Source: Strigamia acuminata
Lineage: Eukaryota
Assembly: GCA_949358305.1 (NCBI GenBank)
Contig: OX442314.1
Span: 28,334,001 to 28,398,000, forward strand
Direction of reading: 5' to 3'
Length of the DNA stretch: 64,000 nt
Shown here: positions 1,656 to 62,665 of the stretch, piece after piece
Layout: each line of letters starts with the position of its first letter
Numbering within the stretch: the first letter of the stretch is position 1
Made by a program: the position numbers and the translations under genes
Notes under the pieces: generated by a model
Seen by the model: only the letters and a program-made list of their open reading frames with translations
What the model was told of the DNA's origin: nothing
Databases searched by the model: none

Positions 1656-1691
1656 ACCGAGCGCTGAACAGCAGAAGGAATCACCAATCTG

Positions 1692-8300: not shown

Positions 8301-10951
8301 TTCACAAGGTCTCAAGCAACCACATTCATACGATGGCAGTGTATTCTTTTCATGGAAAAGTGCTTCCTCATACATTTCAGCCACAATTGATTTGTTTGAC
8401 TCTAAACTGCAATCCATCAAATTTTTGTTGGACATAAAAGGCAACCTGGTAAGCCAAAAATCTATGAGTTTATCAATATTTAGATGGTGCATGCATTTAG
8501 ACCTGCATCGTTGATCAATTTTTTTTCTCACACAATCTTCGTAGCATTGGGTTTCCTTTTTCTTATCCGGTTCACAATAGGGAAATCTCGAAGCTAAAAA
8601 TTTATACTACCAAGAAACATATGCAGCATTACACTTTTGGTGATCCATCACAATAACAAGATTAAAAAGCTGATATCTGATATATTCCAACTTATAGACT
8701 TTTGTGATGCGCTACAAATTTTACAATAAGGGGAATCAGAAAAGAAATTTAAATACTTAACTGGTTAAGTACTAAAGTGTGGATATGCAACTGAGCATGC
8801 CCAGAACATTTTTTAAAGTTTGTTTTTACACACTAACTTAAAACACAGGCTGCTAAACACTTAAGCAGTTAAGTGTTTAGCAGCAAATACAAATACAACA
8901 GCTTACACTTCGAATAAAAAATTGAGTTTGAGATTCAAATCCTGACGTCACCACGAAAGTGAATTGGTAAGACATAACGCTAATTATCGTTATCGCCTAA
9001 TATTTAATTGTGTAAAAATAAAAGTATAAGTTACAAACTCCAATAAAATAGTAAATGATGAGATTCTTACCGAAATCTGTGGATTGACACAGTTGGTTCT
9101 ATTCGTTTTATAGAGTATGTGAAATTTCATATTGGGTGCTAATTTTCGATCTATAGATTCAGCCAAAAATATTAAAACTTCAAAATTATTTAATTTTGTT
9201 TTTATTTCTAACCAGAAGTAAAGACCAAAGATCGTCCAATTACATCATTTCGATAGCTTAGTGAAATTTCTGTCTTATCCTTTCTAGAAATTCCTTCCTT
9301 AATTGTTGTTTCATGCAATACAGTTTTGCCCTGAAAAGTTATACGATTACAGATGTAATTCAGCAGATTACTTGTTGTGACCCCAAATGTCCTTTTTTAT
9401 TGGAATATGTTGAGAATAAGAAATTAATGATTTAATTTTCTGATGTGTTAAATGAATTGTTTTACAGTCCCTTTAATTATTTGGAAATGCTGGAAGTGAC
9501 TAATTTGAGGAATCTATTTATTTTAGTGTTTCTAACAAGTTATTGGATCTTTTCATTGTATAATAGTGTTTAAAATAATTTATATTTGTTCTGCACCGGT
9601 TGTGCTTTTGGGCAATTTGCACAAAAGCCGTTGCCACTGCCCTGGTAATTTGAGCCCTGGATTGGGAGGTTGCTAGGGCAAAACTCCAATTTGCACCGTT
9701 TCTAGGGCCAAAGCGTGCCGCGCAGCCCCCCCTTGTTAGCCCTTCTTAGGAATTAAACCTAGGTTTTTGTGTCGCTAAAATGACATGTTTGCTAAAATGG
9801 TGTGTCGCTAAAGTAAAATCGCTAAAATGAAATCGCTAAAATGAAGTACATCCGTGCCGAGATACGATCTGCACTTGGCTTTCACGTTGTGGACAAGAAC
9901 AGGGGAAAGAATAATTTTTATTCCCCATACTATAAAAAAAATTATACCACCATGTCCATGAATTTACTGTCATTTACTGTCATCTCCATGAATAAAATTG
10001 AACAATTCCGGTCCTACTAACATTTGCTTTGAATTGTTATTTTTCATAATAATTTTTACAAGGGTGAATACTTGTGATGACAACTGTAGGATTCTGGGTT
10101 TCAGCATCAGTGACCAATTCCCTGGCATCCCATCCTTGCCCAGAATATGGAATAATTCAGACACGAGCTCATGATTTAGTGTCTACAGTAACTTCACTGC
10201 TTGTTTTACACAAGAGAGGTCTTGTTGCTACTATCTAACAGAGGAGCAACTCTTTATTGTTTCTTTCCCTGGCGAACCGTTGCTAAAGAAAAAATATGAA
10301 ATTTGCATGAAGACATCAGTGACTGTATTGGTAGCAATATAACCCTAACTTTTATCATTACAGACTAACAATTACATGAACCATTTCATGTGGTGACAAT
10401 ACATAATATCAACATAATATCCCACCCAGTATTAAAAAAATAATAGGATTAAATACCTGTCTTATCTTGACGTGCAGTAAATTGCTTGAAATGTTGCTTT
10501 TTAACCAAAGATCTGTATAATTCTCAATTTTCACTGCTGCAGAAATCATTCCTCGCAGTGGCAAAATACAAACATGTAATCTTTCAAATATGCCTTGCAC
10601 TGTAGAATCTTCTGGCATTTTTTCCCAGTATTCGGACAAAGATCCGGTATCGAGACCAAAGAACCTTATTTCTGGGAACGTCATTTCACCTATTGGAACA
10701 TATTCAATTTCAACTTTGAAATGTCCATCAAAGTAGAATTAGATTCTTTCCGTTGTTTGGTAACAACAAATGGTGCCACAAACGATCAAAACAACGAACC
10801 AAACTGCCCGGACTAAACTTCTTTTTTTTTTGTTGAAAACATTATCAATAAACTTCAAACTATCATTGCCGGACAGGGAAGTTTGCATTTCTTGCCGTAC
10901 AAAACGACGAATATGGCTTCGACGAAGCCTAAGAACTTTCACCACAGTCAT
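5327..10951 (-). pseudogene. Double-domain DEG/ENaC gene, copy A, pseudogene
   Basis: CAA>TAA stop at codon 71 (10739-10741) where paralogs have ERIQFYF. 17-bp frameshifting deletion near 5448 in TM2 of domain 2. Last acceptor CAG changed to GAG. Confidence 0.85.
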
Positions 10952-15100: not shown

Positions 15101-16006
15101 TTTTGTTTGAATATGGGAAGTTGTTCCACTGTCCAACACCCATTCGTTGGAACTTTCTCGTGCAAGGTTCGATTTTTCGGTGTTTTTTCCCGGCCTTATG
15201 TCTGCAAGGAAAGATCGTAAATATGATGAGTCTTCGAATTCCGCGGCCTTCTGTTGTTTTTTCAGTAAAAAACATTCCGAAATGTTGTGTCCGAGCTTTT
15301 TACAGTGGTCGCACTGTTTTCCGTTGGATTTTCGGACGGTATTCACACGATCGTTTTTAGATTTCGGTTTTCTGTTTTTGGCAAACATTGCGTTATCGTC
15401 CGAATCTGTTCGATCCTCGACATTTTTTCGGCTTTGCCAATCGTCCGTCACCTTTTTAAGGACTTTTTCGAATGTTGGCATGGTCTTTTTGGTCCGAATG
15501 GCAGCTCGTATTGCGGTGAAGCTTTCGGGTAGGCTTAGCAAGAATATCGCAGTGGTCAGTTTATCGGGCGTAAGTTTTGTCGAGTTTTCTTCGAGACTTC
15601 GAAGGGTTTCGGAAAAGAATATCGAGTGATTTTTAAAATCGTCGTCTGATTTTAGTTTTTTCATGATCATTTCGGTCAGCATCGATGTGATTTTTATGTC
15701 GCCCGTATCGTCGTAGACTTCCTGGAGTTTTTTGTACATATGAAATGCACTCGGTTGGCCGTCCACGTGTCGCATTTGATCGAGTGAGATCGCGGTTAGT
15801 AGATCGCTTTCGGCTTTGCCGTTATTTTCGTTCCATTCTTCTAGTTCGGTTTCTGATTTTTTATCGCCGGCGATTACGGCTGGGCGAGGATGTTCGGTTT
15901 CAATCCATTTCCAGGTCTTTCGTGCATAACATGCGGCTTTTAGCTGCAGTTTCCACCCACGATAATTGGTGTCGTTTAGTTTCTCCACTCTGGTATGATC
16001 GGTCAT
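15068..16006 (-). CDS. Copia Gag with CCHC knuckle and start of protease (truncated)
   Basis: LNDTNYRGWK, CDHCKKLGHNISEC, WVLDSGTTSHI, after which homology stops. Confidence 0.9.
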   Translation of the reverse strand: MTDHTRVEKLNDTNYRGWKLQLKAACYARKTWKWIETEHPRPAVIAGDKKSETELEEWNENNGKAESDLLTAISLDQMRHVDGQPSAFHMYKKLQEVYDDTGDIKITSMLTEMIMKKLKSDDDFKNHSIFFSETLRSLEENSTKLTPDKLTTAIFLLSLPESFTAIRAAIRTKKTMPTFEKVLKKVTDDWQSRKNVEDRTDSDDNAMFAKNRKPKSKNDRVNTVRKSNGKQCDHCKKLGHNISECFLLKKQQKAAEFEDSSYLRSFLADIRPGKNTEKSNLARESSNEWVLDSGTTSHIQTKFNNGTKNLAI

Positions 16007-16090
16007 TTTCGATTTATTTCGAATATTTCGGACGGATTTAACGAGATTTAGTTTACGTGGAACGAAGCGATTACGATTGCCAATTAGTTT

Positions 16091-16120
16091 GCGCAGTGGA
16101 AGCGTGCTGGGCCCATAACC
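16091..16120 (-). promoter_or_regulatory. Extended half-tRNA-iMet primer-binding site
   Basis: Plus strand GCGCAGTGGAAGCGTGCTGGGCCCATAACC equals nt 10-39 of arthropod initiator tRNA-Met as I recall it, and directly abuts the LTR. Confidence 0.88.
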
Positions 16121-16209
16121 TGTTGTTATGTTGCTAAGAAAACGAATGTGATATGCACGGAACGACTTGGAGAGAACTGATTTTATTCAAATAAACATGT
16201 GGGTTATAT

Positions 16210-18089: not shown

Positions 18090-18771
18090 ACTAATGGCTT
18101 GGGGATGGTTTCTCGTATGGGCATCGGTCTAAATCATCAAATTACGAGTCTCATGGGCCAATATACTTACAAAAAAGTATTGGAGGATTTTTATGCTTCC
18201 ATTTGCAGATGATAAACTGTCTTTGACATGGATATTTCAGCAGGATAATGATCCTAAGCATAAAGTCATGTCGGTTACTCAGTGGTTACAAACCCATCAC
18301 ATTGAGGTTTTGACTTGGCCTGCACATTCGCCAGATCTAAATCCTACAGAAACAGTGTGGAACGATGTTGAGAAAGGAGTAAAAAATGCAAAACCTGCAA
18401 ATTTGTCGGAATTATTTGACATTATCGAGGTGAAATGGGAAAACATTCCTCTCGAACGCTGTATTCGTTTAGTTCACACAATGAATAGATTATTCAAATA
18501 ATAATTATTCAAATAAACAATGAATTTCTCAAGAAGCAGGGTTTTTTTGTGCTTTTTTGAATGTGCTGCTAAACTTATGTGCAGCAACAAATTGTACACA
18601 AACACTAAAAGTTACAATTGGTAATTACAATGTATGATTTGTTTAAATGTTTTTGCATTTTCTAAAAGCAGAATTTAATGCCAAATTCATATTTTGTATC
18701 AGAAAGACTTTTTGACAAAACACAAAATAGTGCAAATGACAGTAGTGGTGCTAAACTTTTGACCACCACTG
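18090..18771 (+). mobile_element. Tc1-like transposon 3' remnant
   Basis: WIFQQDNDPKH..WPAHSPDLNPTETVW (DD34E region). Ends in ACCACCACTG followed by TA. Left boundary approximate. Confidence 0.88.
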
Positions 18772-21454: not shown

Positions 21455-24400
21455 TTAGGTAACTTCAGATTTGATGCTCTGAATTAGTATTTGAGTTTTT
21501 TAACTCGAGTATATATAATGGGAGATGTCCGTATATAATTATTCCGAGTACCATAAACTGATTTACTATCTTTTGCAATAATTCTGGAATTGCAAGAATT
21601 GAAAGGCCAAGCATTAGTGCAAAAGAATTTCCAATATCGCAACACAATGCAACTGCAGTGTAGGATAATATTTGTGTAATCTGTTCAATTATGCTATTCA
21701 TTGGACTTAAACCAAGAACCTTGAGTGGAAATGCTTCAGGATGTTGAAAGTAAACATAAGTGTTAAATATTTGTTCTTCACAAGGATGGTAACATCCACA
21801 GTCTTTCGTTATGTCAACTTTTAAGGAATTCTTCATGAATAGTTGTAATGAAGAAATTGCTTTTTCAGCATTTGCACAGATATTATTTGTTACATTATCC
21901 AAAAATGGTAGCCTAAAATTATAAAGACTTATTACAACCCAGTGCAGTAACGCATGGACCTCTTCCGAGTCCTCTTGTACCAGCCCATACAGAATCTTTA
22001 GTAATGTTTGTAAATTTAGATTCTAAAATGACCAAGAACTTGAAAAAAAATATAATTTGAGATAGACACACGACAGTAGGTGCATTCAATAAGTGTAAAA
22101 CGTATGCAAAACTCGTTTCGTGTTTGCACGTGACGTCATTCCCATTGAATAACATGTTATTCAATTCGAATGGGAATGACGTCACGTGCAAACACGAAAC
22201 GAGTTTTGCATACGTTTTAGACTTATTGAATGCACCTAGTCTTATTTTGCATTCTGATGTCACCCTGATTGATGGGGTCAGCCCAGTGCAGTCTGCACTC
22301 CCTGAACTCTGATAAAGAATTTTTATTTATAACTCTAGAACTCCTGGATTTTGAGGGCCCCAGTAACTTAGCAACATTCAAATCTGTGAAGAATTACGAC
22401 TCACTTGCATAGAACAGAATTATAAATCTTTTTTTCATAACATTCATCCCGGCATCGTTTGTATTTGTCATGGTCAAGACAAGGTTGTGCTCGTAAGTTT
22501 AATCGGACGATCTAAAATAAAGCAAATGATTCAACAGTTTATATGTAATAATCTGATTATTACTTTAATCATTCTATATGTAATAACGACTAAGGTGTTA
22601 TCCACAACACTTCTTCTACTTCTGAGAATTGATGGTATTTCAGCATAATTTTGTCGAAAGTACACCTAAGAAAAAATTACGATTTACCATAATTTTTACA
22701 TTTATACTCTTGAGTAAAAATATGAACACTTCCCCTTTGCAATTTACACCCGTATAACAACCATCCATGTTCATTTACCGTAACAATGACTTTCCATAAA
22801 ACTAACATTACTCGTAAGTGATGTTTTCCAAATACTCAAAGTGATAAAAAATATTATAAAACTATTTGAATAAAGAGTTAGTAGGGATTGCAGTACCGGT
22901 TTCAGTATCGGTTCCAGTACCGGTATTGGTACCGGGATTCAGTACCAGTCTTGGTACCGAGGTTTTTTTTCTGTCGGTACTGAGGGCCGGTACTAGTACC
23001 GTAAGCTTTTCTTGGTACCGGAACCGTCCCTCACACCGGAACCGGAACCGGTACTTTCCATCATCACAAACAACACAACAACGCCAACTACTACCAGCAT
23101 TTCTAATGATGTAGGAGGTGACAAATTTTATTTCACTCGTTATTTACTCTTTTTAAATTAACTTGGAAATAGTAATAATGGCAAATGGCTGAACTAGAAC
23201 AGCAAGCTTTTGAATCTGACACAAAAAAGACTTGTACTAAATTTCCAAATCTGGTGCCACAACTTCAAACCCCAATATCTCAACAACCAGACCACGGATT
23301 TTTTTATTTCCAAAACCAAACGATATAGAGGACCTTCTCCTCTACAAACCCTAAAAGGCAGAACACTCTATCCCTCTTGGTTTTTGAGCGGCGACCGTTT
23401 GAATTTGGCGCAACTGAAATTACAAAACCCAAATATTCCAAGTTTTTAGCATTTTTGATTTCAGCGTTTTTGATTTCACGGTTTTTGTTTTCCTCATTTT
23501 TGTAATTCAGCGTTTTATGTTTTCAGCGTTGTTGCATTTCAGAGTTTTTGATTTCCATGCTTGCTACACGAAGGATCCCCGAAGGATCGCCGAAAGCTCT
23601 CCTGCAGGCTCCCCAATGTTTAAGTGTCCGCCACTCGAAAACTAAGAGGGGTAGAGTGTTGTACCTTTCAGGGTTTGTAGAGAAGGTCCTCTATATCGTT
23701 TGGTTATTTAAATAAAAAAATCCGTGATCAGGTTGTTGAGATATGGGGTTTGAAGTTGTGGCACCAGATTTGGAAATTTAGTAAAAGTCTTTTTTGTGCC
23801 ATGCTTGCTGCTCGAAAATTAAGAGGAGTAGAGACTTGTGCTGTTCACGGTTTGTTTAGGAGTAAGTCCTCTATCTTTTCGTGTAAAAACCATTGAAATC
23901 CGTGGTAACAAAAATTGGGATTTGTTCTATCTGTAGTTGGGCAAATGTGAATGTGGTGCCAACTTCAGCCTGGTGAATAAATTGCAGTACTACAGTATTA
24001 TCTAATTATACATGACAAATAAATATTTTTGTTGAAAAATAGACTGACTTTCCAGAACCGGTACCAATACCGGTGCCAGTACCGCTTTCGGTAGTAGTAC
24101 CGGCCCAATACCGGTGCCCATTTTTCATTGGGAACCGGAACCGAATATAGTACCGGAAAAAAATTTCAGTACCGAATACCGGTACCATGAAAACCGTCCG
24201 GTACTGCAATCCCTAAGAGTTAGTTGCCACTATTCTTGACAAAAGTGATAATTGAAACTTCATATGTGCACTAATTGACGTGTAGACAAATCATACATTA
24301 CTTCATACTCATGCTGATTACATAATTGACCTGCCAATGGTCGCAGACTAAAAAATATTAGTGAAGCAGCTCCGGCATATTTCAGTGGTGCTGCAACAAG

Positions 24401-27400
24401 ATAGTGCTCGCATTAATATTTTATATACATTTTATATATAAAATGACAAGTTATGTACCGATGTCAGATTGAAAGCATGTTCCAGTTGGCATAGCTATTT
24501 TACTCCATGTTACATTAGTTCTTACTCCAGCAGCCTGCAAAAACATTTATGATCAACTATGATCAACCTAAGTTACGTTTGGTATATAGCACATCCTCAA
24601 TTTACGACCATCCAAAATTTCAGAAATACCAACTACAAATTAGTTTACGTTGTTGGCACTAGGATAAGCTCAAAACTCACGCTCTTATTGTTTTTTAAAA
24701 TAAACCATTTATTTATTTAATAGACAAAAATCATAAAAAAAAATATGATTTAAAAATGTTTTATTTTAATTATTGGGGTGAACAATTTTTTCACTTTTTA
24801 CATCCTTGAACAATTTCTAGGAACCGTATTAGTACTAGTTCGAAAGTTGAGGACCTGCTGTATACAGGGTGTCCCAAAAGTCTGAACCTTCCCAAGTAAT
24901 TTCCAAAATACTTGAGATATCAGAAAACTGAAAAAAAAAACTCATACAGGAAATCATTCATTGCAAATCTGATGGCATCCTCAAATTTGACCTCAAAGGT
25001 TATTTTCAGGGTCATTCCCTTGCTAACTTCTAAACCAATCAGGTTAGAGCAAAATTTCCAATTAGAAAGTGGTAGAGCATGGCCTAATTAGTCTAAAAAC
25101 ATGATTTACTAAAAGTATTTTCCTAAAAATTTTTTGAAAAACCTACTAAAATTGTCTCTACAGCTGCATGCTGAAATTAAGGGCCAATAATAAAACGCCT
25201 CCCCAAAAACTCTGATTTCTCCCGCAAAATAAAATACAATACCCCCCACTTTTGAGACCCCCACAAAAATATCCACTTTACCCCCCTTTAAACTAGATTT
25301 CCTCCCCATTTTCCTAAACCCCCAAAACAAGGTATTTAAGCCTCGATACGTCGCACGTACATACCGGTTCTGTGGTTGGCACGTGGGCCATTGCGTAGGA
25401 TCTCCCTGCACTAATAACGGATTAGAGGCTACAAACAATGTCATCAAGTCGCACCACACATTCTGTAATAGACAGCCCATGCACTGTTTCATTCCGATTT
25501 TAAAAGAAATGGTCCGCAATTGGTCCAGTGAACGAAAACCCGATTGTGTAAACGCCAAACTGTTTGCCTGCACCCCTACGCTTACTCTAAAACAGATCAC
25601 GGAGGCTTATAACTGGAAGCAGTCGATGCCAGTAATTAAAATCGGGATAGAAGACACTAAGCGGTATTTCGTTGTTCCTGCTATGAAAAAGACACTGCGC
25701 GAAAATGACATCGACAAGTGGTGAGAAGCTATACTCTGTTTCGCTTGAGGCAAAAAATGTTCCTCTAGGAGAAAAAAGAAAACGTGGCAGGCCGTCTAAG
25801 GCTAAAAAGGCACTTGTAGTGCAAGAACTGCCACGTATTATGCTTATTTTGGGGGTAATTGAGTGATTTCTGATATTTCTGTTTGGGGGGAATTCAGTTT
25901 TTAGGGGGTCCAAAAATGTTTTTTGGGGGACTAACTAGATTTTCCTTTTTAGTTTTATTTGGGGGGCCAAACAAATACTTTCAGGGGGGGGGGGAAACCC
26001 GTTATTTCAGGGGATCGTTAATTGCAATCTGAAATTAAGTAAACACAGTAAATAAGCTTTACCAAAATTTTACAAAGTTATGAAAATAACCTGCAAACAT
26101 TAGATTTTCTATAATCTAAAAAAAGTAAATGAAAACAAATTAAACAAGTAAAGCATCTGTTTGATTAGCTTGTTGCTAATCAAGCTGTAGAGACAATTTT
26201 AGTAGGTTTTTTTCAAAAATTTTGTAGGAAAATATTTTTAGTAAATTATGTTTTTAGACTAATTAGGCCATGCTCTACCACTTTCTAATTGGAAATTTTG
26301 CTCTAACCTAATTGGTTTAGAAGTTAGCAAGTGAATGACCTTGAAAATGACCTTTGAGGTCAAATTTGAGGATGCCATCAGATTCGCAATGAATGATTTC
26401 CCGTATGAGTTTTTTTTCAGTTTTTTGATATCTCAAGTATTTTGGAAATTACTTGGGGAGGTTCAGACTTTTGGGACACCCTGTACCGTACTGCCTCATT
26501 TAAACGCCCGGATTTATTCAAACGCCGGGCCCGTTTTAACGCCTGGCAAGCGTACACAAAGCAGGTTATAGACGCCGGCCTCGTATTAACGCCGGTTTTC
26601 AAATTAGCGCCGGGTAAACGCGGAAATGGCCATTTACGTAGCCAAAACGTTTCGGAAATGCCGTACACGTAACGTACGATACTCTTCCCGGTCGATGAAG
26701 TATTTAAGTACTTAAGTATTTAAGTGTTGGCACTTCCAATCCGGGTGCCTTTGCTATTTCTGATCTCTTATTAGCTCAATGGAATGTCTTTTATCATAAA
26801 TAAAAATTTATTTCCAAAAAAAATATTTTTCTGCTACTTTGTTTTCCCGATAACTTATTTTTGACTATTTTTCTGACTAAACGCCTGGCTCAAATAAACG
26901 CCTGGTTTCAATTTACCGCCTGGCTGTAGGCCCTAAAAAAAATTTAAACGCCCGGGCGTTTAAATGAGGCAGTACGGTATATTGTTACGCGCCCGGACCA
27001 TGTTGTGAGGCAGCCGGTACAAACACTGTGGTTTAAGTGCAAGTTTGTGAAACTTTCACTACGTGGCGCTAGATGAGCTATGCACTCGGCACCACCGGGA
27101 CTGTTAACTTTGGCTTAACGGGAGAAAGGTAGTTTATCTGATTAAAGATAGAACTGACTTAACTCAGTTCTGCTTTAGATTTCAAACCATCATTTACTCC
27201 AGTTTGATGCTCAAACCTTTTCCTTTTGAGACAGGCGGATAAATGATAAAAATAAAGGAAATAAAATAAAATAAAGTAATGTCACGTATTAATTTTAGAT
27301 GTTAGAATTAATGGGACTTGAATTCGCGCAAATGTGAATTTAGCGCAAATAAGTGGGCTCGTTCGCAGATTTACTCGTAAATAACCGCCGTCAAGTGTGG

Positions 27401-30400
27401 ACATCGGGCGAGGAATAAACCTAAACTCGCTGTAACACACATTATTTATATTCGACGAGATTCAAACTCACGTTATGGGTGTTGTATGTAAAAGAATGAG
27501 TAAGCGCAATGTAATTCCTTGAGCGGGAGGGCGAGGAACGTCACAGGCATGCAAAATAAAATATGGGCAAAAAGAGGCGCTATTAGGGCTAGATAGAAGT
27601 GCGCTGTTTAGAACGCAGTGTTAAACTAAAGATGACATTCTTATGCTCAATCTAAGAGGTGTGACCTGGTTGAGAGAGGTGTGAGAAGTGATATTAATCA
27701 GGAAAAAGGTGACTAAGTAAACTTGAGTCATGTGGTCAGGTTTATGAAAGTGGGTGAGGGGGTGAAAAATATAAAATAACTTCGATTGTTGAAAATAATG
27801 TAATGCGCGAGGTGAAGCTGCGCATACATTTAGGAAGATGGATCATCACACTTAGATGAGAAGATAAATTGGGAAAAACTGGGAAAAATAAAGATGGGTA
27901 AAACCAAGTGGAAAATAATACAAAAAATAGGGTGGGTAGCCTGCCTGTGACAGTAATAAATTTGGAATTAGGCAAAAATGAAATAATTTCGGGAAACTAA
28001 AACAATTTTCCAATAAAAATGGGAAAAATCAGGGAAAAGGCGCAAAATGCGCTCAAAATTTCAAAAATTTCCACTGTCTAGAGTCAGGACCGTGACAAGG
28101 TACACACAGATTGTTGCAATATTAAATGTGAAGGATTGTTATGTGATGCTGAATGAGATCCTGAAATAATTTCATTCCATAAACAGCCAGCAATGTAAAC
28201 AATGAGCTCAAAGTTTGCACTATTTTGTCTGTGTATTTATCCAATCTGAGCAATCAGGCCTAGTGGATGAATGGGACGCTATTCCACGCGCGACATTGGT
28301 TAGCCCGACGTCGCGATTATGGATGTGTGAAACATTAGATGTCGCATGTCGCGCCAGCCAATGTTGTGCTTATTCGATGTGGCGACGTCGTGACAACGAA
28401 TAACGTACGTATTTGCTGGCGAGACGCACGTATTGTTTATGCTTTTATCGTTGTGCTAAGCTCGGGAATTTTCTCCCATTTAGCAGGAGGAAAACCATTG
28501 AATAATTGTGTTTTAATCAATGTTTCAAAAAAATGTACGAGTGGGAAATGTCGGGCCAATTGTTATGGCACTTCCAGGTGAAGCATCCATCCACCAGCGA
28601 TTTTACGCGTATTATAATGCCCCGAACTACAACAGAAACCCGCGTACTAATTACAGATTATAAATTGTCCTCGTTCTTTACTAGAGTCTCTCAGTTTAAT
28701 GGAGACCAGCACACAATAAGAGGAAATACAGTCTGCACCAAATTCAAACAATTCTATTTTTTTCACACGAAAGCACAAAAATCTAAAATCGTTTACTGCA
28801 CACACATCATTTAACCCTTCCAACCCGAAAGTATTTGTCTCCCTTTTCTCCCTAAGATGGGCATTTTTTTTTACCCAGATTCTGCACATGCGCAAAATCC
28901 GGGTTTTAGGGAATTCCTATTAGGAATTCCCTAAAACCCTAACATGTAGCCAATGGGGTTAGATTGTAGTGAACGCCATATGGACGTGGTAGGCATGATT
29001 GACATTAGCGGAGCCTGCTGATGATCATTATTTTTGTCCTTTGGACTCCTAAGATGTGTCTTTTTTGACCCAGTTAAACTTTGAGTTCAAATTATAGAAA
29101 AACTTGAGAAAGTAAAAAAATTTCAACTGTGGTATAGTGTCTGGTGATGTTTCAAAGAAATAGTCACCAAAAATCAGATAAAAAAAAATTATTTTTTATA
29201 AAAATAATGATTTTTTTAAAACGGGGTCACAAAATGACCCATCTCAGGGTTGGAAGGGTTAATCGTGTCGCACAAAGCGGAATAAACGTGTCGCGCCACG
29301 TAATCCTTACACGTCGCGCCACTTATACTTATATGTCGCGCCACGTAATACAATTGCGGTTAAACATCATGATGTCGCGCTAGGTCATACGACCGACATG
29401 CTTAATAGCGACGTCGCTCTAAATCATCTGTTACGCAACTACCCAGATACGTAGGTGCGAATTTGCGTGTCGCGCCAACCCATGTCGCTTGTAGTACTCA
29501 TCACCGTATGAATACTGTAGGTGACAAAGTGTAAAAAAAATAGTTCCAAGATCCAAGTTGAATTTTATCATTTGAGATTCAATGATGTCATGACATCAGA
29601 ACTTTGTTCACCAACATGACTGCCTGCATGAAGACAATAATAGTTTGTAGTGGTGGTCCAGTGGTTAAGGCAATGGACTAGTTATCTTTCCACACAGGTT
29701 CAAATCCTGTTGTCTATGAAAATTTTTAATTTTATTTTTAATTCATTTTTAGCAGTAATTTTAATGTTTGTAATTTTATATTTGTTTTATTTTTTTAACA
29801 AATATAAAATAGTGCAAACTTTAATCTCATTATTTTCATTGTTGGCTGTTTATGGAATAAAATTATTTCAGGATCTCATTCAGCATGACATAACAATCCT
29901 TCACATTTAATATTGCAACAATCTGTGTGTATCTTATTCATGTGCTTCCCTTGTGAGTGCATTCGTACTCAATCCTTGATATTGGCGCCCTCTTGCAACC
30001 ACTGGTGCCAATACTGTTTAATTTACATACAATGACAACTAAATTCACTTTTGAGTGATATTTGTCATTGGTGCTCAAAATTTTATTTGGTTTATAAACC
30101 TTTCGTGATTGGACAATACGTTATGTGTATCATGATCAGTCCACACCTGCGTACCGTAACATCACAATTTTGAGGCAAGTATCCGCGATGTAAATGCAGA
30201 TATGAACCCATCTTTAACGGAATACTTACCACAGTAGCAGTGTCCATTGCTCCTTTGTTCATTGATGGCGTTTGGAATCGCCACACTTCTTCTATTGACG
30301 GTTTTTTCTTTCGGATGGTCATGTTCATTAAATTGATAAAATGAATCTTGCATTCATTCTTGCCAATTTCTTTAGCATATGTCCTCCTATAGTGAGTCAT

Positions 30401-33400
30401 TAATGATCCATCCTTACACGCAATTATATTGGGCAAATACAATGTGTGATTTTCTTGAATAATTATCACATATCTTGTTGGCTCAATCATATACAATGCG
30501 ATTCTTTCTTTGCTCACATAAACAGCCAATATTGCAGAAGTAAATATAAGAATTAAATTCAATGTAGATTGCAGTAGAAGCTTTTTTTGTGGCTGCTGCA
30601 TCAAATCTTGTGAAACATCTTTGTTTTTGTCAATGACCAAATGCATTTGTTTAGTAGTTTTCTTTTTTATGCTCGCTTTAAGTTGAGCAGGTCTGATGTA
30701 TTTAGATAAAATGAGAAGAAACATTTGAGCAATTTCAATTAAAGACAGAAGAGAAAATCCCAAAGAGAATCCCAAATTGCCCCCAAAATCGATCAATAAG
30801 TTGGGAATGGTGTAAATGTAGGTTTCTGTCATTTTGACAAACAATTCTTCAAATACTTTAAGATTGAGACTTATTAGATCTTTGCCATTTGATTCATCTT
30901 GAAAATCTAACTTAAAACATAATAATTTTTAGAATTATGCAAAAACATAGAAGATATTATAGTTTAACTTGTATCAGAATAGACTATTAACAAATAAATA
31001 TTCCGTTCGCAAGGTCTCAAGCAACCACATTCAAATGATGGCAGTGTAGTCATTTCATGGAAAAATGCTTCCTCATACATTTCAGCCACAATTGATTTGT
31101 TTGATTCTACACTGCAATCCATCAAATTTTTGTTAGACATAAAAGGCAACCTGGTAAGTCAAAAATCTATGAGTTTATCAATATTTAGATGTAACATGCA
31201 ATTAGACCTGCATCGTTGAGGAATTTTTTTCCTCACACAATCTTCGTAGCATTGGGTTTCCTTTTTCTTATCCGGTTCACAATAGGGATGTCTCGAAGCT
31301 AAAAATTGATACTACCAAAAAACAATAATGCAGCATTACTATTTTTGGTGATCCGTCACAATAAACAAGATTGAAAAGCAGATATCTGATATACTCAAAC
31401 TTATACACTTTTGTAATGCACTTCAAATTTAACAAAATTAATTGGGCTTACACTTCGAATAAAAAATTGAATATCAGATTCAATTCCTGACGCCACCGAG
31501 AAAGTATATTGGTAAGTCATGACGCCAACTACCGTTGTTATCTAATACTCAATTGTGGAAAAATAAGTTACAAACTCCAATAAAATAGTAAAAGGTGAGA
31601 TTCTTACCGTAATCTGTGGCGTGACACAGTTGGTGCTATTCGTTTTAAGGAGCATGTGTGCTTTCACATTTACTGCAAATTTTCGATCTATAGATTTAGC
31701 CAATAATATTAAAAGTTCAAAATTATTTTATTTTGTTTTTATTTCTAACCAGAAGTAAAGACTAAAGATCGTCCAGTTACATCATTTCGATAGCTTAGTG
31801 AAATTTCTGTGTTATCCTTTCTAGAAATTCCTTCTTTAATTGTTGTTTCATGCAATACAGTTTTGCCCTGAAAAGTCATACGATTATCGATGTAATCCAG
31901 CAGATTACTGTATGCATATAGAATGCACACTACGCATACATTTGACGCCAATAATCAAGTAGAGGGCACCTGTGCCGAGTTACAATCTGCATATGATTTT
32001 TATGTTACATGTCCCTTTATTAAAATGCTTTCGCCAAATGTATGGACATAAACAGACCAATGGCCCAGAGATAAGCCCTATCCTACCATACAGTGATCCG
32101 ACCCAGTAAGGCAGAGGAGAGGGTTGAGTAGAGTTGTGGGAGTCCAGTTGTGGACAAGAGCAGGGGTGACAATAATTTTTATTCCCCATACTATAAAAAA
32201 ATTAAGGCACCATTTCCATGAATTTACAGTCATTTACTGTCATGTCCATGAATCAAATTGAACAATTCCGGTCCTACTAACACTGCATTGTTTTTTAATA
32301 ATTCTTACAACCGTCTTGTGGTGATCTCAAACTGTTTCACCACTTAGGAGAAAAATATTAATTATTTCCTAATTAATTTGGCTTGGCACACGCCAAGTCA
32401 GATCATGTGACCGAGGGCAGAAATCTTCCCTAGGCACATATCACCCCAGGTTGGCCGGGGTGAAAACGGTAATTAACCGTTATGGTGCAATAATCCCTTG
32501 TTGCACCAGTTTTAGCTAATTGCGCAGATTATCTGCGCAATATTGAAGGGTGCCGGGCTCGCACCCTCGCTTCAATCGGGACTCTTAAAAATACATCACA
32601 ACCCTCAACATCACTGCTTATTCTCTCCGAAAAGTATTGACAGAGTCACGTGAGTAATTTAAGTTTCACCAAGCTTTCCTTGTGCAACACCGTGCAAGGC
32701 CAGCTTATCCGCGAGAATTAGCCGCAGCTAATTTCCCGCATCGAAGTGAGAAGTTCCCAATCGACGTGAACTATCGCCATCGCAAGTGCGCGAACACTTG
32801 CTATCGCCATCGTACGCTGACCGGACGCCTATCCGACGTGAACCACCACCATCGTGCAGTCGTACACCGAGTGGAAGAACCCACGAGAACCATCGTCGCA
32901 GGACCATCGTTCGTGAGTTAGAGGAAGGCAACCGTCTTCCTAACAACTTTGAGTTGTAAAGCGCCATTAGGACGCTTTTGTCTCACAACGGTCGTTGCGA
33001 GAATTTCCATCGTTCTTTCCCGCATTATTTCGCGACTTGTCGCTTTCATTCTCGTATATTAATCGTATTATTATCCATTTTTATTGTATTATCCGAATAA
33101 ATATAAAGTGTGCTTTGAATTGAAAAACTTTGTGTTTTTATTTTCCTATTAAATTAACCCTAGATAATTTAGGCCGCGATATAAGTCCTTCGTGGCATTC
33201 ACCTGCGGTTTTAGGCTTATTTATTAGAAATAAGCGTGATAAAACCCGGATTGCAGCAGTCTGAATAATTCTGATGACAACTGTAGGATACTGGGCTTCA
33301 GCATCACAGTGACCAATTCCCTGGCATCCCATCCTTGCCCAGGAGATGGAATAATTCAGACACGAGCTCATGATTTAGTGTCTAACTTCACTTCTTGTTT

Positions 33401-34144
33401 TACACAAGAAAGGTCATTTGTTGCTACTCTTTAACAGAGAATCAACTCTTTATTGTTTATTTCCCTGGCCAACCGTTGCTAAGAGAAAAATATGGAAGCT
33501 GCATGACGACATCACTGATTGTATTGGTAGCAAGACCCCTCCCCCCAACCCAACTTATATCATTAAAAACTAACAACTTCATGTGATCACTTTACATAAT
33601 ATCAACATAATATCCCATCCAGTATTACGAAAATAATAGAATTAAATACCTGTCTTATCTTAACGTGCTGTAAATTGCTTGAAATGTTGCTTTTTAACCA
33701 AAAATCTGTATAATTTTCAATTTTCACTGCTGCAGAAATCATGCTTCTCACTGGCAAAAGACATTCACGGTATCTTTTGAGTTTGCTTTGCACTGAAGAA
33801 TCTTCTGGCATTTTTTCCCAGTATTCGGACAAAGATCCGGTATCGAGACCAAAGAACCTCAATTCTGGGAACGTCATTTCACCTATTGGAACATATTCAA
33901 TTTCAACTTTGAAATGTCCATCAAAATAGAATTGGATTCTTTCCATTGTTTGGTAACAACAAATGGTGCCACAAACGATCAAAACAACGAACCAAACTGC
34001 CCGGACTAAACTACTCTTTTGTTTGTTGAAAACATTATCAATAAACTTCATACTATCGTTGCCTGACAGTGAAGTTTGCATTTCTTGCCGTACAAAATGA
34101 CGAATATGACTTCGACGAAGCCTAAGAGCTTTCACCGCAGTCAT
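21455..34144 (-). CDS. Double-domain DEG/ENaC gene, copy B; coding exons open, many intronic transposons
   Basis: Exons homologous to copy D (ORFs 33602-34144, 31745-31951, 30964-31149, 30092-30844, 21465-21902). The small exons checked by eye keep frame and GT-AG sites. Ends QFM|SIKSEVT-stop. Confidence 0.8.
22078..22237. mobile_element. 160-bp palindromic MITE in intron 11 of copy B
   Basis: AGGTGCATTCAATAAG..CTTATTGAATGCACCT, almost fully self-complementary. 3-bp TSD AGT defined by the empty site cgacagtctt in copy D. Confidence 0.92.
22882..24215. mobile_element. Non-autonomous hAT-like element in intron 9 of copy B
   Basis: TIR TAGGGATTGCAGTACCGG, 8-bp TSD AGAGTTAG, many subterminal GTACCG motifs, internal inverted repeat of about 165 bp. 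Confidence 0.92.
24865..26483. mobile_element. TA-flanked DNA transposon with TIRs of about 310 bp and an internal MULE-like transposase fragment
   Basis: TIR begins CAGGGTGTCCCAAAAGTCTGAACC, TA on both sides. Internal TNNGLEATNNVIK..T and AKNVPLGEKRKRGRPSKAKKAL. Confidence 0.85.
26486..26977. mobile_element. Tc/pogo-like MITE
   Basis: TIR CCGTACTGCCTCATTTAAACGCCCGG, TA flanks, subterminal AAACGCC repeats. Confidence 0.9.
28815..29258. mobile_element. piggyBac-like MITE
   Basis: TTAA-CCCTTCCAACCC..GGGTTGGAAGGG-TTAA. Confidence 0.88.
29647..29712 (+). other. Degenerate tRNA-derived (SINE-head-like) sequence
   Basis: A-box-like TGGTCCAGTGGTTAAGG and B-box GGTTCAAATCC at tRNA spacing. No convincing acceptor or anticodon stem. 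Confidence 0.5.
32317..33258 (+). mobile_element. Solo LTR (942 bp) in intron 1 of copy B
   Basis: TG..CA ends, 4-bp TSD GTCT, AATAAA near 33096. Absent from the same intron position in copy D. Confidence 0.85.
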
Positions 34145-57161: not shown

Positions 57162-60100
57162 TTACGTAACTTCAGATTTGATGCACTGAATTAATATTTT
57201 TGAATTAGGTTTTTTTAACTCGAGAATATGATGGGAGATGTGCTTTTATATTTATTCCGAGTACCATAAACTGATTTAGTATCTTTTGCAATAATTCTGG
57301 AATTGCAAGAATTGAAAGGCCGAGCATTAATGCAAAAGAATTTCCAATATCGCAACACAATGCAACTGCAGTGTAGGATAATATTTGTGTAATCTGTTCA
57401 ATTATGTTATTCATTGGAATTAAACCAACAACCTTGAATGGAAATGCTTCAGGATGTTGAAAATAAACATAAGTGTTAAATATTTGTTCTTCACAAGGAG
57501 GATGACATCCACAGTCTTTCGTTATGTCAACTTTTAAGGAATTCTTCATGAATAGTTGTAATGAAAAAATTGCTTCTTCAGCATTTGCACAGGTATTATT
57601 TGTTACATTATCCAAAAATGGTAGCCTAAAATTACAAAGACTAATTACAACACAGTGCAGTAACTCGTAGTGTCACCTCCTTCGACATTCCCCATGGACC
57701 TCCTCCGAGTCCTCTTGTACCTGTTCATACAGAATCTTTAGTAATGTTTGTAAATTTAGATTCTAAATTGACCAAAAACTTAAAAAAATATATAATTTCA
57801 GATAGACACACGACAGTCTTATTTTGCATTCTGATGTCACCCTGATTGATGGTCTAATCCAGTGCAGTCCGCACTCCCTGAACTCTGGTAAAGAATTTTT
57901 ATTTCTAACTCTAGAACTCTTAGATTTTGAGGGCCCAAGTAGCAATATTCAAATCTGTGAAGAATTACGACTCACTTGCATCGAACAAAATTATAAATCA
58001 TTTTTTTATAACAATCTTCCTGGCACTGTTTGTATTTGTCATGGTCAAGACAAGGTTGTGCTCGTAAATTTAATCGAACGGTCTAAAAAAAAGCAAATGT
58101 TTCAGAGTTTATATGTAATAAACTGATGTATTACTTTAATCATTTGAAATGTACTAATGACAAAGGTGTTATCTACAACACTTCTTCTACTTCTGAGAAT
58201 TGATGGTATTTTAGCATCATTTAGTCGAAAGTATATCTACAAAAGAAATTATGATTAACTACAATTTCAACATTTTCACATGTAACTAAACACAACCACA
58301 GTACAAGCAGTTCGTCTGGGCAATTTACACCTCTGAACCCATCCATCTAAGCAGTTTACCATTAACCATGACTTTCCTTAAACGTACATTACGTTACGTT
58401 TTCCACATACTCTCAGTAGTCAAAAATATTATAAAGAACAGTCACCATAACCAATCTGTATTGAAAGACTAGTACACAATTGATCAACAGCAGAAAAGTT
58501 GGCACGCTAATGTGTTTAGTCTTGTAGTCCGTTTTATTGTTTAGAGAGATTAAGACCTGGAATTTCAGATATTAGTAGATACTATTCTACCAGATTTTTT
58601 GAATTTAATATTCAAACTTTTTATTGTCAATTTTACCATATGGAATACTTAAAATTTAAAAAATTTAAAATTTACGATTTTCTAGTTCTCTTTTAACTGA
58701 ATTGTAGCTGAATATTGGTAGAATGTAGAATGATATCTTAACACCATGATTCATTCCTTTATTTTATCTTTAAAAAATTGTATGAAAATTGATCATGGCA
58801 TAAAATAAGTTTTGACCAATATTTCATGTATTAGGCAAGGAGTTGTAGATTACTTCATACTCATGCTGATTACATATTTGATCTTTCACTGGTTGTAGAC
58901 TAAAAAATATTATTGAGGCAGCTCCGGCATATTTCAGTGGTGCTGCAACAAGATAATGCTCGTATTAATATTTCATGTACAATTTATATAAAACGACAAG
59001 TTATGTACCGATGTCAGATTGAAAGCAAGTTCCAGTTGGCATAGCTATTTTACTCCATGTTACATTACTTCTTACTCCAGTAGCCTGCAAAAACATTTAT
59101 GATCAACTATAATCAACCTACATTACGTTTGATATATAGCAGATCCTCAATTTACGAACATCCAAAATTTCAGAAATACCAACTACAAATTAGTTTACGT
59201 TGTTGGCACTAGGATAAGCGCAAAACTCACGCTCTTATTGTTGTTTAATATAAACCATTTATTTATTTATAATAGACAAAAATCATAAAAACAATATGAT
59301 TCAAGAATGTATTCTTTAATTACTGGGGTGAACAATTTTTTCACTTTGTACATCCTTGACCTAAGAACAAGTTCTTGCAACAGTACTTGTTCGAAAGTTG
59401 AGGACCTGCTGTGTATATGCAGAATGCTGGGTGCATTCGTACTCAATCCTTGATATTGGCGCCATCTTACAAACACTGGTAACAATACTGTTTAATTGAC
59501 ATACAATAACAACTAAATACATTTTTGAGTGATATTTGTCATTACTGCTCTAAATTTTATTTGGTTAATAAACCTTTCGTGATTGGACGATACGTTATGT
59601 GTATCATAATGGGTCCACACCTGCGTAACATCGCGATTTTGAAGCACGTTTCCGCTATGTTATACAGATGTGAACCCATCTTTAGCGAAATTCTTACGAA
59701 AGTAGCAGCTTTCATTGCTACTTTATCCATCACAGGCGTTTGGAATCGCCACACATCTTCTATTGACGGTTTTTTGTTGTCGATAGTCATGTTCATTAAA
59801 TTGATAAAATGAATCTTGCATTCATTCTTGCCAATTTCATTAGCATATTTCCTCCTTTTCGTAGTCATGTAGGGTCCATCCATACATGCAATTAAATTAG
59901 GTAAATACAATGTGTAATTTTCTTGAATAATTACCACATATCTTGTTGGCTCACTCATATATAATGCGATTCTTTCTTTGCTCACATAAACTGCCAAATT
60001 TGCAGAAGTAACTATAAGAATTAAATTCAATGTAGATTGCAGTAGAAGTTTTTTTTGTGGCCGCTGCATCACACTTTGAGAAACGTCTTTCTTTTTGTCG

Positions 60101-62665
60101 ATGACCAAATGCATTTGCTTAGTAGTTTTCTTTTTTATGCTCGCTTTAAGTTGAGCAGGTCTGATGTATTTAGACAAATTGAGAAGAAACATTTGAGCAA
60201 TTTCAATCAAAGACAGAAGAGAAAATCCCAAAGAAAATCCCAAATTGCCCCCAAAATCAATCAATAAGTTTGGAATGGTGTAAATGTAGGTTTCTGTCAT
60301 TCTGACAAACAATTCTTCCAATACTTTTAGATTGAGACTTATTAGATCTTTGCCATTTGGTTCATATTGAAAATCTAACTTAAAACATGATAATTTTGTA
60401 AATTATGCATAAAAATAGAAGATATTATAGTTTAACTTGTATCAGAATAGAATATAAACAAATAAACATTCCGTTCACAAGGTCTAAAGCAACCACATTC
60501 GAACGATGGCAGTGTAGTCGTTTCATGGAAAAATGCTTCCTCATACATTTCAGCCACAATTGATTTGTTTGACGCTAAACTGCAATCCATTAAAGTTTTG
60601 TTGGACATAAAAGGCAACCTGGTAAGTAAAACATATATGAGTTTATCAATATTTGATGTTGCATGCAATTAGACCTGCATCGTTGAGGAGTTTTTTTCCT
60701 CACACAATCTTCGTAGCATTGGGTTTCCTTTTTCTTATCCGGTTCACAATAGGGATATCTCGAAGCTAAAAATTGATACTATAAAAACAAATGCAGCATT
60801 ACTATTGTTGGTGATCCATCACAATAAACAAGATTGAAAAACTGATATCTAATATATTCAAACGTATAGACTTTTGTAATGCACTACAAATTTCACCTAT
60901 TATACAACAGATTAATTGAGCTTACACTTCGAATAAAAAATTGCATATCAGATTCAATTCCTGACGCCACCGTAAACGTATATTGGTAAGACATGACGCC
61001 AACTACCGCTGTCATCTAATATTCAAGTGTGTCAAAATAAAAGTCTACGTTACAAACTCCAATAAAATAATAAAAGATGAGATTCTTACCGTAATCTGTG
61101 GGTTGACACAGTTGGTTCTATTCGTTTTAAAGAGCAAGTGTAATCTCATGTTTAGCGCTAATTTTCGATCTATAGATTTAGCCAATAATACTAAAGGTTC
61201 AAAATTATTTTACTTTGTTTTTATTTCTAACCAGAAGTTAAGACCAAAGATCGTCCAATTACATCATTTCGATAGCTTAGTGAAATGTTTGTGTTATCAT
61301 TTCTACTTGTAGAAATTCCTTCTTTAATTGTTGTTTCATGCAATACAGTTTTTCCCTGAAATGTTACACGATTATAGATGTAATTCAGCACATTACTGTA
61401 TACGTATAGAATGCACACTACACATACTGTACATTTGACGCCGATAATCAAGTAGAGGGCACCTGTACCGAGATACAATCTGCGTTTGGTTTTTATGTTA
61501 CATGTCCCTTTATTAAAATGCTTTCGCCAAATGTATGGACATAAACAGACCAATGGCCCAGAGATAAGCCCTATCCTACGATGGGGTGATCCTACCCAGT
61601 AAGGAAGAGGAGAGGGTTGAGTAGTGCAGTTGTGGGAGTCCAGTTGTGGACAAGAGCAGGGGTGAAAATAATTTTAATTCCCCATACTATAAAAAATTAA
61701 GGCACCATGTCCATGAATTTACTGTCATTTACTGTCATGTCCATGAATAAAATTGAACAATTCCGGTCCTACTAACTAAATGTTTTTTAATAATTTTTAC
61801 AACTGTCTGAATACTTAAGATTACAACTGTAGGATGCTAGGTTTCAGCATCACAGTGACCAATTCCCTGGCATTCCATCTTTGCCCAGAAGATGGAATAA
61901 TTCAGACAGTGCTCATGATTTAGTGTCTAACTTCTTGTTTTACACAAGAAAAGTCATTTGTTGCTACTCTTTAACAGAGAATCAACTCTTTATTGTTTAT
62001 TTTCCTGGCCAACCGTTGCTAAGAAAAAAATATGAAAGCTGCATGAGTGATTGTATTGGTAGCAACACAACCCAACTTATATAATTAAAAACTAACAATT
62101 TCATGTGGTCACAATACATAATATCAACATAATATCCCATCCAGTATTGCGAAATAATAGAATTAAATACCTGTCTTATCTTGACGTGCTGTAAATTGCT
62201 TGAAATGTTGCTTTTTAACCAAAAATCTGTATAATTTTCAATTTTCACAGCTGCATAAATCATGCATCTCACTGGCAAAATACATTCATGTAATCTTTCG
62301 AGGTTGCCTTGCACTGAAGAAACTTCTGGCATTTTTTCCCAGTATTCGGATAAAGATCCGGTATCGAGACTAAAGTACCTAAATTCTGAGTATGTCATTT
62401 CACCTATTGGAACATATTCAATTTCAACCTTGAAATGTCCTTCAAAGTAGAATTGGATTCTTTCTATTGTCTGGTAACAACAAATGGTGCCACAAACGAT
62501 CAAAACAACGAACCAAACTGCCCGGACTAAACTTCTCTTTTCTTTGTTGAAAATATTATCAATAAACTTCAAACTATCATTGCCTGACAGTGAAGTTTGC
62601 ATTTCCTGCCGTACAAAACGACGAATATGACTTCGACGAAGCCTAAGAGCTTTCACCGCAGTCAT
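57162..62665 (-). CDS. Double-domain DEG/ENaC (pickpocket/ASIC-like) channel gene, copy D; 13 exons, about 836 aa, apparently intact
   Basis: Hand-built GT-AG exons: 62665-62171, 61355-61232, 61169-61090, 61015-60926, 60778-60675, 60618-60437, 60374-59698, 59084-59009, 58942-58854, 58236-58135, 58082-57976, 57625-57265, 57185-57162 (2511 nt, all phases compatible, no internal stop). Domain 1: TM1 RAVWFVVLIVCGTICCYQTIERIQFYF, Cys-rich thumb YCEPD..QCYEDC..RCRLPF..DC..ECGCFRPCE, TM2 LLIDFGGNLGFSLGFSLLSLIEI. Domain 2: TM1 followed by ERIALY.EPT..LYLPNLIAC, GTCFQ, PCLD..QCQEDC..RCKLPF..DCGCHPPCEE, TM2 LCCDIGNSFALMLGLSILAIPEL. Confidence 0.85.

What the first reader, a model, noticed from the sequence alone, without database searches (positions are those of the whole stretch)
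57162..62665. Natural concatemer: two DEG/ENaC subunits in one polypeptide
Seen: in all four paralogs one stop-free stretch (exon 7; 59698-60374 in D; ORFs 7420-8148, 30092-30844, 47371-48012) runs from TM2 of a first DEG/ENaC subunit (DFGGNLGFSLGFSLLSLIE), through a roughly 44-aa Lys-rich linker, into TM1 and the post-TM1 motif of a second (ERIxLYxxEPT..LYLPNLIAC). The second unit has its own Cys-rich thumb and TM2 (DIGNSFALMLGLSILAIPE). Established: DEG/ENaC/ASIC/ppk subunits have two TM helices and assemble as trimers. Inference: this is a 4-TM, two-subunit protein that cannot form a simple homotrimer. It would need a third free subunit (fixed 2+1 stoichiometry), link two trimers from three chains, leave one domain outside the pore, or be cleaved. 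I do not know of a characterised family like this, but cannot search to confirm novelty.
Basis: partly seen in the sequence, partly recalled or inferred. Interest (0 to 1): 0.92.

Follow-up and report, generated by a model that had tools for sequence, protein, structure and literature searches.

The report
Two channel subunits in one chain
This gene, probably from a centipede, joins two sodium-channel subunits head to tail in one reading frame, so the predicted protein would supply two of the three parts of a DEG/ENaC channel and likely needs a third subunit, a natural design that we did not find described.

Summary
Confirmed. A 12-exon model (62665-57205, minus strand, all introns GT-AG) gives an open 848-aa protein with two complete DEG/ENaC units and four membrane helices. 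One 677-nt exon carries TM2 of unit 1, a 43-aa basic linker and TM1 of unit 2. The five introns of unit 2 match five of unit 1 in place and phase, so the gene arose by whole-gene duplication and fusion. The four local copies are recent, and copy A is broken, so they are weak support. The strong support is external: 26 of 34 homologues carry the same junction, 18 of them named Strigamia maritima proteins, mostly at 23-37% identity (one at 63%). First and second units sort into separate clades. Shrimp and a midge have independent three-unit chains. Unit 1 keeps a canonical pore helix; unit 2 has lost the gate glycine yet stays under purifying selection. Best reading (0.45): a sensory cation channel with a built-in 2+1 make-up. 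Rivals are two linked trimers from three chains, a peripheral second unit, or cleavage. No transcript, current or true structure was available. Ten literature searches found no natural multi-unit DEG/ENaC.

The parts
62171..62665 (-). Copy D exon 1: start codon, cytosolic N-terminus (no His-Gly motif), TM1 of unit 1 (62533-62468), start of the ectodomain
   Evidence: Pfam ASC 12-59, E 2e-4
61232..61355 (-). Copy D exon 2 (unit 1 finger/beta-ball region)
   Evidence: GT-AG borders, present in 4 of 4 copies; intron phase matches unit 2
61090..61169 (-). Copy D exon 3 (unit 1)
60926..61015 (-). Copy D exon 4 (unit 1)
60675..60778 (-). Copy D exon 5 (unit 1 Cys-rich thumb, first half)
   Evidence: the 56-nt intron after it absorbs a 1-nt indel in D and a TGA in B and C
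60437..60618 (-). Copy D exon 6 (unit 1 thumb, second half)
59698..60374 (-). Copy D exon 7, the fusion exon: TM2 of unit 1 (60258-60178), 43-aa basic cytosolic linker (60177-60049), TM1 of unit 2 (60048-59986), start of the unit 2 ectodomain
   Evidence: junction shared with 26 of 34 homologues
59009..59084 (-). Copy D exon 8 (unit 2)
58854..58942 (-). Copy D exon 9 (unit 2)
58135..58236 (-). Copy D exon 10 (unit 2)
57976..58082 (-). Copy D exon 11 (unit 2 thumb, first half)
57205..57625 (-). Copy D exon 12: unit 2 thumb second half, TM2 of unit 2 (57351-57274), short tail, stop codon
   Evidence: Pfam ASC 314-453, 28.0 bits
38222..52120 (-). Paralog C, open 855-aa two-unit model; fusion exon 48065-47389; copia element in intron 9
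21465..34144 (-). Paralog B, open 855-aa two-unit model; fusion exon 30906-30230
5408..10951 (-). Paralog A, two-unit gene broken by TAA at 10741-10739 and a 17-nt deletion in the last exon (likely pseudogene); fusion exon 8201-7525

Best explanation
The gene joins two complete DEG/ENaC subunits in one reading frame, and the predicted uncut chain likely fills two neighbouring places of one trimeric cation channel, with a separate third subunit completing the pore (2+1). Shown: two units, four TM helices, a cytosolic linker, origin by whole-gene duplication in which the last exon of copy 1 and the first exon of copy 2 became one exon, and long separate evolution of the two units. Inferred: both TM2 helices line one pore. 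Unit 1 supplies a canonical gate (Asp398, Gly401, Gly404, GFS). Unit 2 supplies an odd face (Asn804 and Ala807 for the two glycines) that would be tolerated once per pore. The fast-changing finger regions would set what the channel senses. Inferred by analogy with centipede BRTNaC1 and PDPNaC1 and the mite ENaC expansion: an expanded family of sensory receptors in which fusion fixes subunit order and make-up. The third subunit is not identified; it could be a single-unit centipede DEG/ENaC.
For: Architecture. Intron phases 0,1,0,0,2 sit at profile positions 130/160/183/220/256 in unit 1 and 133/156/185/220/256 in unit 2, 5 of 5 unit-2 introns. 26 of 34 phmmer hits carry a TM2-to-TM1 junction; 18 of these are named S. 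maritima (30 of 34 looked up). The TM2-Asp to post-TM1-Pro distance is 90-116 aa in 17 of 17 aligned homologues and 103 here, so linker length is held. First units form a clade (10 rows, 99/98), 6 of 7 second units group (80/88), and a recent local duplication of the window's two units is rejected (p-AU 0.008). Both TM2 regions have dN/dS 0.12-0.13, against 0.70-0.96 in the fingers. The lower-gate Gly (PDPNaC1 Gly375; passages of PMC12714832) is replaced in unit 2 of the window and of 4 of 5 S. maritima doubles, while the gate Asp and the filter Gly stay. AlphaFold2 on the S. maritima double P0019 gives two DEG/ENaC folds, pLDDT 63, pTM 0.61, closest to BRTNaC1 and PDPNaC1 (E 7.8e-18 and 1.7e-16). 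A unit1+unit1+unit2 trimer of P0019 scored 0.36 against a best control of 0.00, rated weak support. At 0.60 or under, only 5 of 78 solved complexes passed, against all 4 mismatches that passed of 180. The runs agreed in at least 70% of contacts, partner pLDDT was about 60, and solved homologous trimers exist, so the score may come from memory. Decapod three-unit chains show that fused units diverge at the same pore positions. Engineered head-to-tail ASIC1a dimers gave currents (passages of PMC4529235).
Against: No transcript or protein of this gene was seen. No single-unit partner was found in the window or among the S. maritima hits, though the query favoured junction-bearing proteins. The complex test used a distant proxy, cut into separate chains, and fits the two-linked-trimers rival equally well. 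I could not inspect how the two units sit in the AlphaFold model. The S. maritima homologues are gene predictions whose junctions could include predicted introns. dN/dS comes from 6 non-independent pairs with few changes, and the linker value (0.45) is not clearly below neutral. The engineered ASIC dimers were partly cleaved, so their currents do not prove that an intact dimer works. Weak donor-like sites lie in the linker (score 3.8 in 4 of 4 copies and 4.4 in D and C, against 4.2-8.8 for true donors).
Confidence: 0.45

Rival explanations
1. Three uncut chains build two covalently linked trimers (unit1-unit1-unit2 plus unit1-unit2-unit2, or a unit-1 trimer tied to a unit-2 trimer): a double-barrelled channel that needs no partner.
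For: No partner gene in the cluster. Both TM2s are under purifying selection. The weak unit1-unit1-unit2 score fits one half. A 43-aa linker could reach a neighbouring trimer (inference).
Against: It needs two different trimers to be functional, one of them with two or three Asn at the gate glycine position. Some linkers would have to span much further than others. It could not be modelled: over the 1000-residue limit.
Confidence: 0.2
2. Three chains form one pore from their first units only, and the second units hang outside as accessory sensor or clustering domains.
For: Unit 1 has the canonical GGNLG and GxS pore (invariant Gly-Gly-Asn in 17 of 17 rows); unit 2 is degenerate and more variable across the family.
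Against: Unit 2 keeps the gate Asp, one Gly and the filter Gly, and its TM2 is as constrained as that of unit 1. That is unexpected for a lipid-facing helix. DEG/ENaC ectodomains normally fold against neighbouring subunits (recalled).
Confidence: 0.12
3. The chain is a precursor: the basic linker is cut, or alternative splicing or an internal start yields separate subunits that assemble like ordinary heteromers; the fusion only ensures co-expression.
For: The linker is basic and variable in sequence across homologues. Engineered ASIC concatemers were partly cleaved. Weak donor-like sites and in-frame Met codons lie in the linker.
Against: Linker length is held to a narrow range over 17 diverged homologues. 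No shared cleavage motif is seen in the aligned linkers. There is no AATAAA or ATTAAA in the junction part of exon 7 in 4 of 4 copies. Unit 2 has no separate N-terminal domain like that of unit 1.
Confidence: 0.15
4. The fused frame is an artefact or a dead end: two neighbouring genes merged by assembly or annotation, or a cluster of decaying copies.
For: Copy A is broken. Overall dN/dS is 0.61. The four copies are recent, and the linker would be open by chance in 4.5% of shuffles.
Against: The junction lies inside one exon. 3 of 4 copies are open over 848-855 aa. Independent short-read contigs list no indel between 60000 and 60230, and one 174-nt contig spans TM2 into the linker without gaps. 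An orthologue in another centipede has the junction at 63% identity. The first and second units have separate deep lineages.
Confidence: 0.05

Closest known systems
Centipede BRTNaC1 (PDB 8ymr; heat-activated) and PDPNaC1 (PDB 9jf7; proton-dissociation-gated), Scolopendra subspinipes mutilans
   Same: Best sequence matches in the PDB (E 8e-8 and 5e-4 for the last exon) and best fold matches. Compact units of about 400-430 aa. PDPNaC1 also lacks His-Gly. BRTNaC1 has seven exons, the number implied by the six introns of unit 1.
   Different: They are single-unit chains with two TM helices. PDPNaC1 is a homotrimer (PMC12714832). Here two unlike units share one chain, and unit 2 lacks the Gly375 and Gly378 equivalents.
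DEG/ENaC superfamily (Pfam ASC PF00858): ASIC, ENaC, pickpocket, FaNaC
   Same: TM1, post-TM1 proline motif, Cys-rich thumb, TM2 with Asp gate and GxS in each unit. Heterotrimers with unlike pore faces are known in ENaC (recalled) and in ASIC2a/3 (PMC10329638, passages).
   Different: The family is described as two TM helices per subunit and three subunits per channel (PMC9822975). This chain has four TM helices and two ASC domains.
Engineered ASIC concatemers (2x, 3x and 4x ASIC1a; ASIC2a/3 trimers)
   Same: Same head-to-tail C-to-N cytosolic link; functional in oocytes.
   Different: Man-made, with full native tails kept, and partly cleaved. Here the link is natural and old, the second N-terminus is trimmed, and the units have diverged to 28% identity in their best-aligned part.
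Uncharacterised database proteins with 2-3 ASC domains (S. maritima T1JD34, T1ITL7, T1IPM9, T1J963; Halocaridina KAK7028032.1 and KAK7013173.1; Penaeus XP_069977668.1; Polypedilum KAG5672929.1)
   Same: Same TM2-linker-TM1 junction. The S. maritima doubles are the same family as the window gene.
   Different: Named only 'uncharacterized' or 'hypothetical'. The three-unit forms group apart from the centipede units (100/98) and could complete a channel alone.

Membership tests
DEG/ENaC (Pfam ASC) | ASC profile match above the curated cut-off | tested here: met
   37.8 and 28.0 bits against 23.6 on two separate exon ORFs of D; two full units with a homologue-built profile
DEG/ENaC (Pfam ASC) | Large ectodomain between two TM helices, with a Cys-rich thumb | tested here: met
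   Four hydrophobic peaks in D; 8 thumb Cys in each unit
DEG/ENaC (Pfam ASC) | TM2 gate Asp and GxS motif | tested here: met
   D398 and GFS; D801 and GLS. Unit 2 has Asn and Ala for the two glycines equivalent to PDPNaC1 375 and 378
DEG/ENaC (Pfam ASC) | Pre-TM1 His-Gly motif | tested here: not met
   Absent before both TM1s. Not strict for the family: absent in PDPNaC1 and present in 43.4% of insect PPKs
DEG/ENaC (Pfam ASC) | One unit with two TM helices per polypeptide | tested here: not met
   Two units and four TM helices; hence filed as a variant, not an ordinary member
DEG/ENaC (Pfam ASC) | ASIC/ENaC fold | tested here: met
   On the proxy P0019 only: Foldseek E 7.8e-18 and TM 0.70 by target length to BRTNaC1; the spliced window protein was not folded
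DEG/ENaC (Pfam ASC) | Trimeric assembly | tested here: inconclusive
   Weak predicted support on the proxy, 0.36 against control 0.00
DEG/ENaC (Pfam ASC) | Cation conduction, gating stimulus, amiloride block | not testable with these tools
   Needs expression and recording
Insect pickpocket subfamilies | Placement inside a PPK clade | not tested
   No named PPK was in the trees; the midge units lie outside the centipede clade

The most novel reading that the evidence does not exclude
Arthropods have repeatedly turned the trimeric DEG/ENaC channel into natural concatemers: three-unit single-chain channels in decapods and a midge, and in centipedes a large family of two-unit chains in which three chains build two covalently coupled pores, a double-barrelled channel with no known counterpart.
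Probability: 0.2. Interest if true: 0.95.

Novelty: new variant of a known kind. Interest (0 to 1): 0.8.

Why it matters
DEG/ENaC channels are described as three separate two-helix subunits, and concatemers exist as laboratory tools. A natural two-unit chain does not fit three-fold symmetry, so it must use a fixed partner, link pores together or be processed; each answer is new for the family. These chains and the three-unit shrimp proteins are natural experiments on which pore and gate residues each of the three positions needs. They also point to a large, unstudied sensory receptor family in soil centipedes. Gene surveys that expect one ASC domain would split or discard such genes.

Tried and rejected
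No whole genome is held for the window, so partners elsewhere in the genome could not be sought. No RNA holder was listed; this is no evidence either way. The two runs laid are contigs of unknown kind from one study and may be the window's own source. Word-index protein searches were nearly blank: none among longer proteins, only the seed itself, only P0001. AlphaFold2 of the three-unit protein P0027 failed (pLDDT 39, pTM 0.29) and was not used. The atlas search returned only single-ASC clusters of 376-485 aa; small clusters are not searched. I first read a frameshift in D and stops in B and C in the unit-1 thumb as gene breaks and rejected that: they fall in a 56-57 nt GT-AG intron whose place and phase recur in unit 2. 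A third unit or an extra exon in intron 1 was looked for and not found. Rows left out of the trees: P0010 (internal repeat) from both, units under 200 aa, and for one search also P0002 unit 2, P0015, window copies A and B and most outside rows. The first tree is a quick tree, and long branches meet in the second. The supplements of the S. maritima genome paper were mostly not searched (50 of 57 files unread) and may mention these genes. The scan's earlier notes held no look-alike.
Full report
OBSERVATION. The window holds four tandem minus-strand copies (A-D) of one gene among retroelements. Aligning the copies gave one 12-exon model in which all 44 of 44 introns are GT-AG. D gives an open 848-aa protein; B and C give 855 aa; A has a stop at codon 71 and a 17-nt deletion in the last exon. 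Exon 7 is 677 nt in 4 of 4 copies and runs without a stop from TM2 of a first unit through a 43-aa basic linker into TM1 of a second. Pfam ASC passes its cut-off on the exon-7 and last-exon ORFs of D. A profile from 42 non-window units finds exactly two near-complete units in each model and no third unit in the window.

THE MODEL CHECKS ITSELF. The two units are only 28% identical over their best-aligned 174 columns (E 2e-15). Yet all 5 introns of unit 2 have a unit-1 intron of the same phase within four profile positions. Unit 1 has one more intron, just before TM2. This supports the small exons, and it shows the origin: a whole gene was duplicated, and the last exon of the upstream copy and the first exon of the downstream copy became one exon. 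Short-read contigs list no indel between 60000 and 60230, and one contig spans TM2 into the linker; these runs may be the window's own source.

HOW MUCH THE FOUR COPIES PROVE. Little on their own. They are 83-86% identical, six short introns differ by 7-13%, and a shuffled linker is open in 4.5% of trials. Selection is uneven: dN/dS is 0.13 and 0.12 in the two TM2 regions, 0.45 in the linker, and 0.96 and 0.70 in the finger regions (6 non-independent pairs). A conserved pore with a fast-changing outer domain is what an expanding sensory receptor family would show (inference).

HOMOLOGUES. A phmmer search with exon 7 gave 34 hits; 26 of 34 carry a TM2-to-TM1 junction. I looked up 30 of the 34. 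Among the 26, 18 are Strigamia maritima, 3 Halocaridina rubra, 1 Polypedilum vanderplanki, 3 unnamed (one clustering with a Penaeus vannamei protein), and 1 was not looked up. The best hit is a S. maritima fragment at 63% identity, so the window is probably from a related centipede (inference). The TM2-to-post-TM1 distance is 90-116 aa in 17 of 17 aligned homologues and 103 here. In the unit tree, first units form a clade (10 rows, 99/98), 6 of 7 second units group (80/88), and all centipede units stand apart from the outside rows (100/98). A local origin of the window's two units is rejected (p-AU 0.008), with the caution that long branches meet. Merged neighbouring duplicates would give the opposite pattern, so the two-unit design is old. 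The decapod proteins have three units, each with its own clade. Some are encoded on 3.4-4.5 kb contigs that hold the whole 1001-1029 aa frame, which looks like mRNA but was not proven to be.

PORE ANATOMY. By PDPNaC1 numbering (PMC12714832; first ninth of the text and passages read), unit 1 keeps the gate Asp, Gly375, Gly378 and GxS. Unit 2 keeps the Asp and GxS but has Asn and Ala for the glycines. Gly375 is also replaced in unit 2 of 4 of 5 S. maritima doubles. Neither unit has His-Gly, nor does PDPNaC1. Unit 1 has Ile at the degenerin site; bulky residues there are frequent in insect PPKs (PMC8438182, passages).

STRUCTURE. The spliced protein could not be folded, so the S. maritima double P0019 served as a proxy. 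AlphaFold2 gave two DEG/ENaC folds, pLDDT 63 and pTM 0.61, closest to BRTNaC1 and PDPNaC1. A unit1-unit1-unit2 trimer cut from it scored 0.36 against a best control of 0.00. The tool rates this weak: more often wrong than right unless likely beforehand, and open to memory of solved trimers. The three-unit fold failed.

MECHANISM. Most likely (0.45) the uncut chain takes two neighbouring places of one trimer, and a third, separate subunit completes it. Reasons: both TM2s are constrained; unit 2 carries a pore face that suits one copy per pore; linker length is held; and three-unit relatives show the same kind of position-specific divergence. In ASIC structures the lower half of TM2 lies beside TM1 of the neighbouring subunit, so a short link suffices (recalled, no call). 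Rivals: two linked trimers from three chains (0.2), cleavage or alternative products (0.15), a peripheral unit 2 (0.12), artefact or decay (0.05). Engineered ASIC1a dimers gave currents but were partly cleaved (PMC4529235, passages), so they do not separate these cases. The sensory role rests on analogy with BRTNaC1 (PMC9974506, passages), PDPNaC1 and the clustered mite ENaC expansion (PMC5203786, passages).

NOVELTY. Ten full-text searches (listings and abstract starts seen) found no natural multi-unit DEG/ENaC. The phrases 'two ASC domains', 'tandem ASC' and 'double ASC' scored zero in all 25 papers listed (of 426 hits). Term look-ups in PMC9822975, PMC10424705, PMC10148893, PMC7067487, PMC13372173 and PMC8438182 (passages only) showed no fused forms. 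The last notes 46 insect PPKs with three to five predicted TM helices and does not use the word fusion. The library lacks most subscription papers, and 50 of 57 supplements of the S. maritima genome paper went unread. The proteins sit in databases unnamed. Each domain is plainly DEG/ENaC; the one-unit-per-chain rule is not met, so I file it as a new variant.

VERDICT. Observation confirmed, reading supported and widened, mechanism open. Interest 0.8.

Noticed in passing
P0014, P0026, P0020 (Halocaridina), P0032/P0036 (Penaeus cluster), P0027 (unnamed): Three-unit DEG/ENaC chains with six TM helices and position-specific clades; the middle unit shrinks to 212-225 aa in P0020, P0027 and P0032. 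Candidate single-chain channels.
   Followed up: partly
P0006 (Polypedilum vanderplanki, 1460 aa): Three similar full ASC units in one predicted protein, in a clade of their own; a real triple or merged tandem genes.
   Followed up: partly
P0002, P0005, P0015, P0017 (S. maritima): A separate clade of closely related units chained with two junctions in P0002 and P0005, so chains of three or more units may also exist in centipedes.
   Followed up: partly
window 39421-46677: Copia-type LTR element in intron 9 of paralog C, on the opposite strand, with 533-nt terminal repeats 100% identical and a 1701-codon open frame: a recent insertion.
   Followed up: partly
window 12087-16209 and 526-4661: A second copia-type element between copies A and B, and a gypsy-like reverse transcriptase/RNase H element below copy A; a DDE_3 transposase fragment at 18133-18498.
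   Followed up: no
window 58180-58194 (copy D exon 10): An RSRR furin-like motif in the unit-2 ectodomain in 4 of 4 copies; it appears to fall on a beta-strand and was not seen in the aligned homologues.
   Followed up: no
window 59950-60200, loose ends: Loose contig ends, read by eye, continue in frame as TM1 or TM2 of more diverged paralogs, so the family extends beyond this window in the same organism.
   Followed up: no
window 61362-62161: A contig joint in both runs skips most of intron 1, which suggests a paralog with a short first intron and no hidden exon there (side only 22 letters; weak).
   Followed up: no
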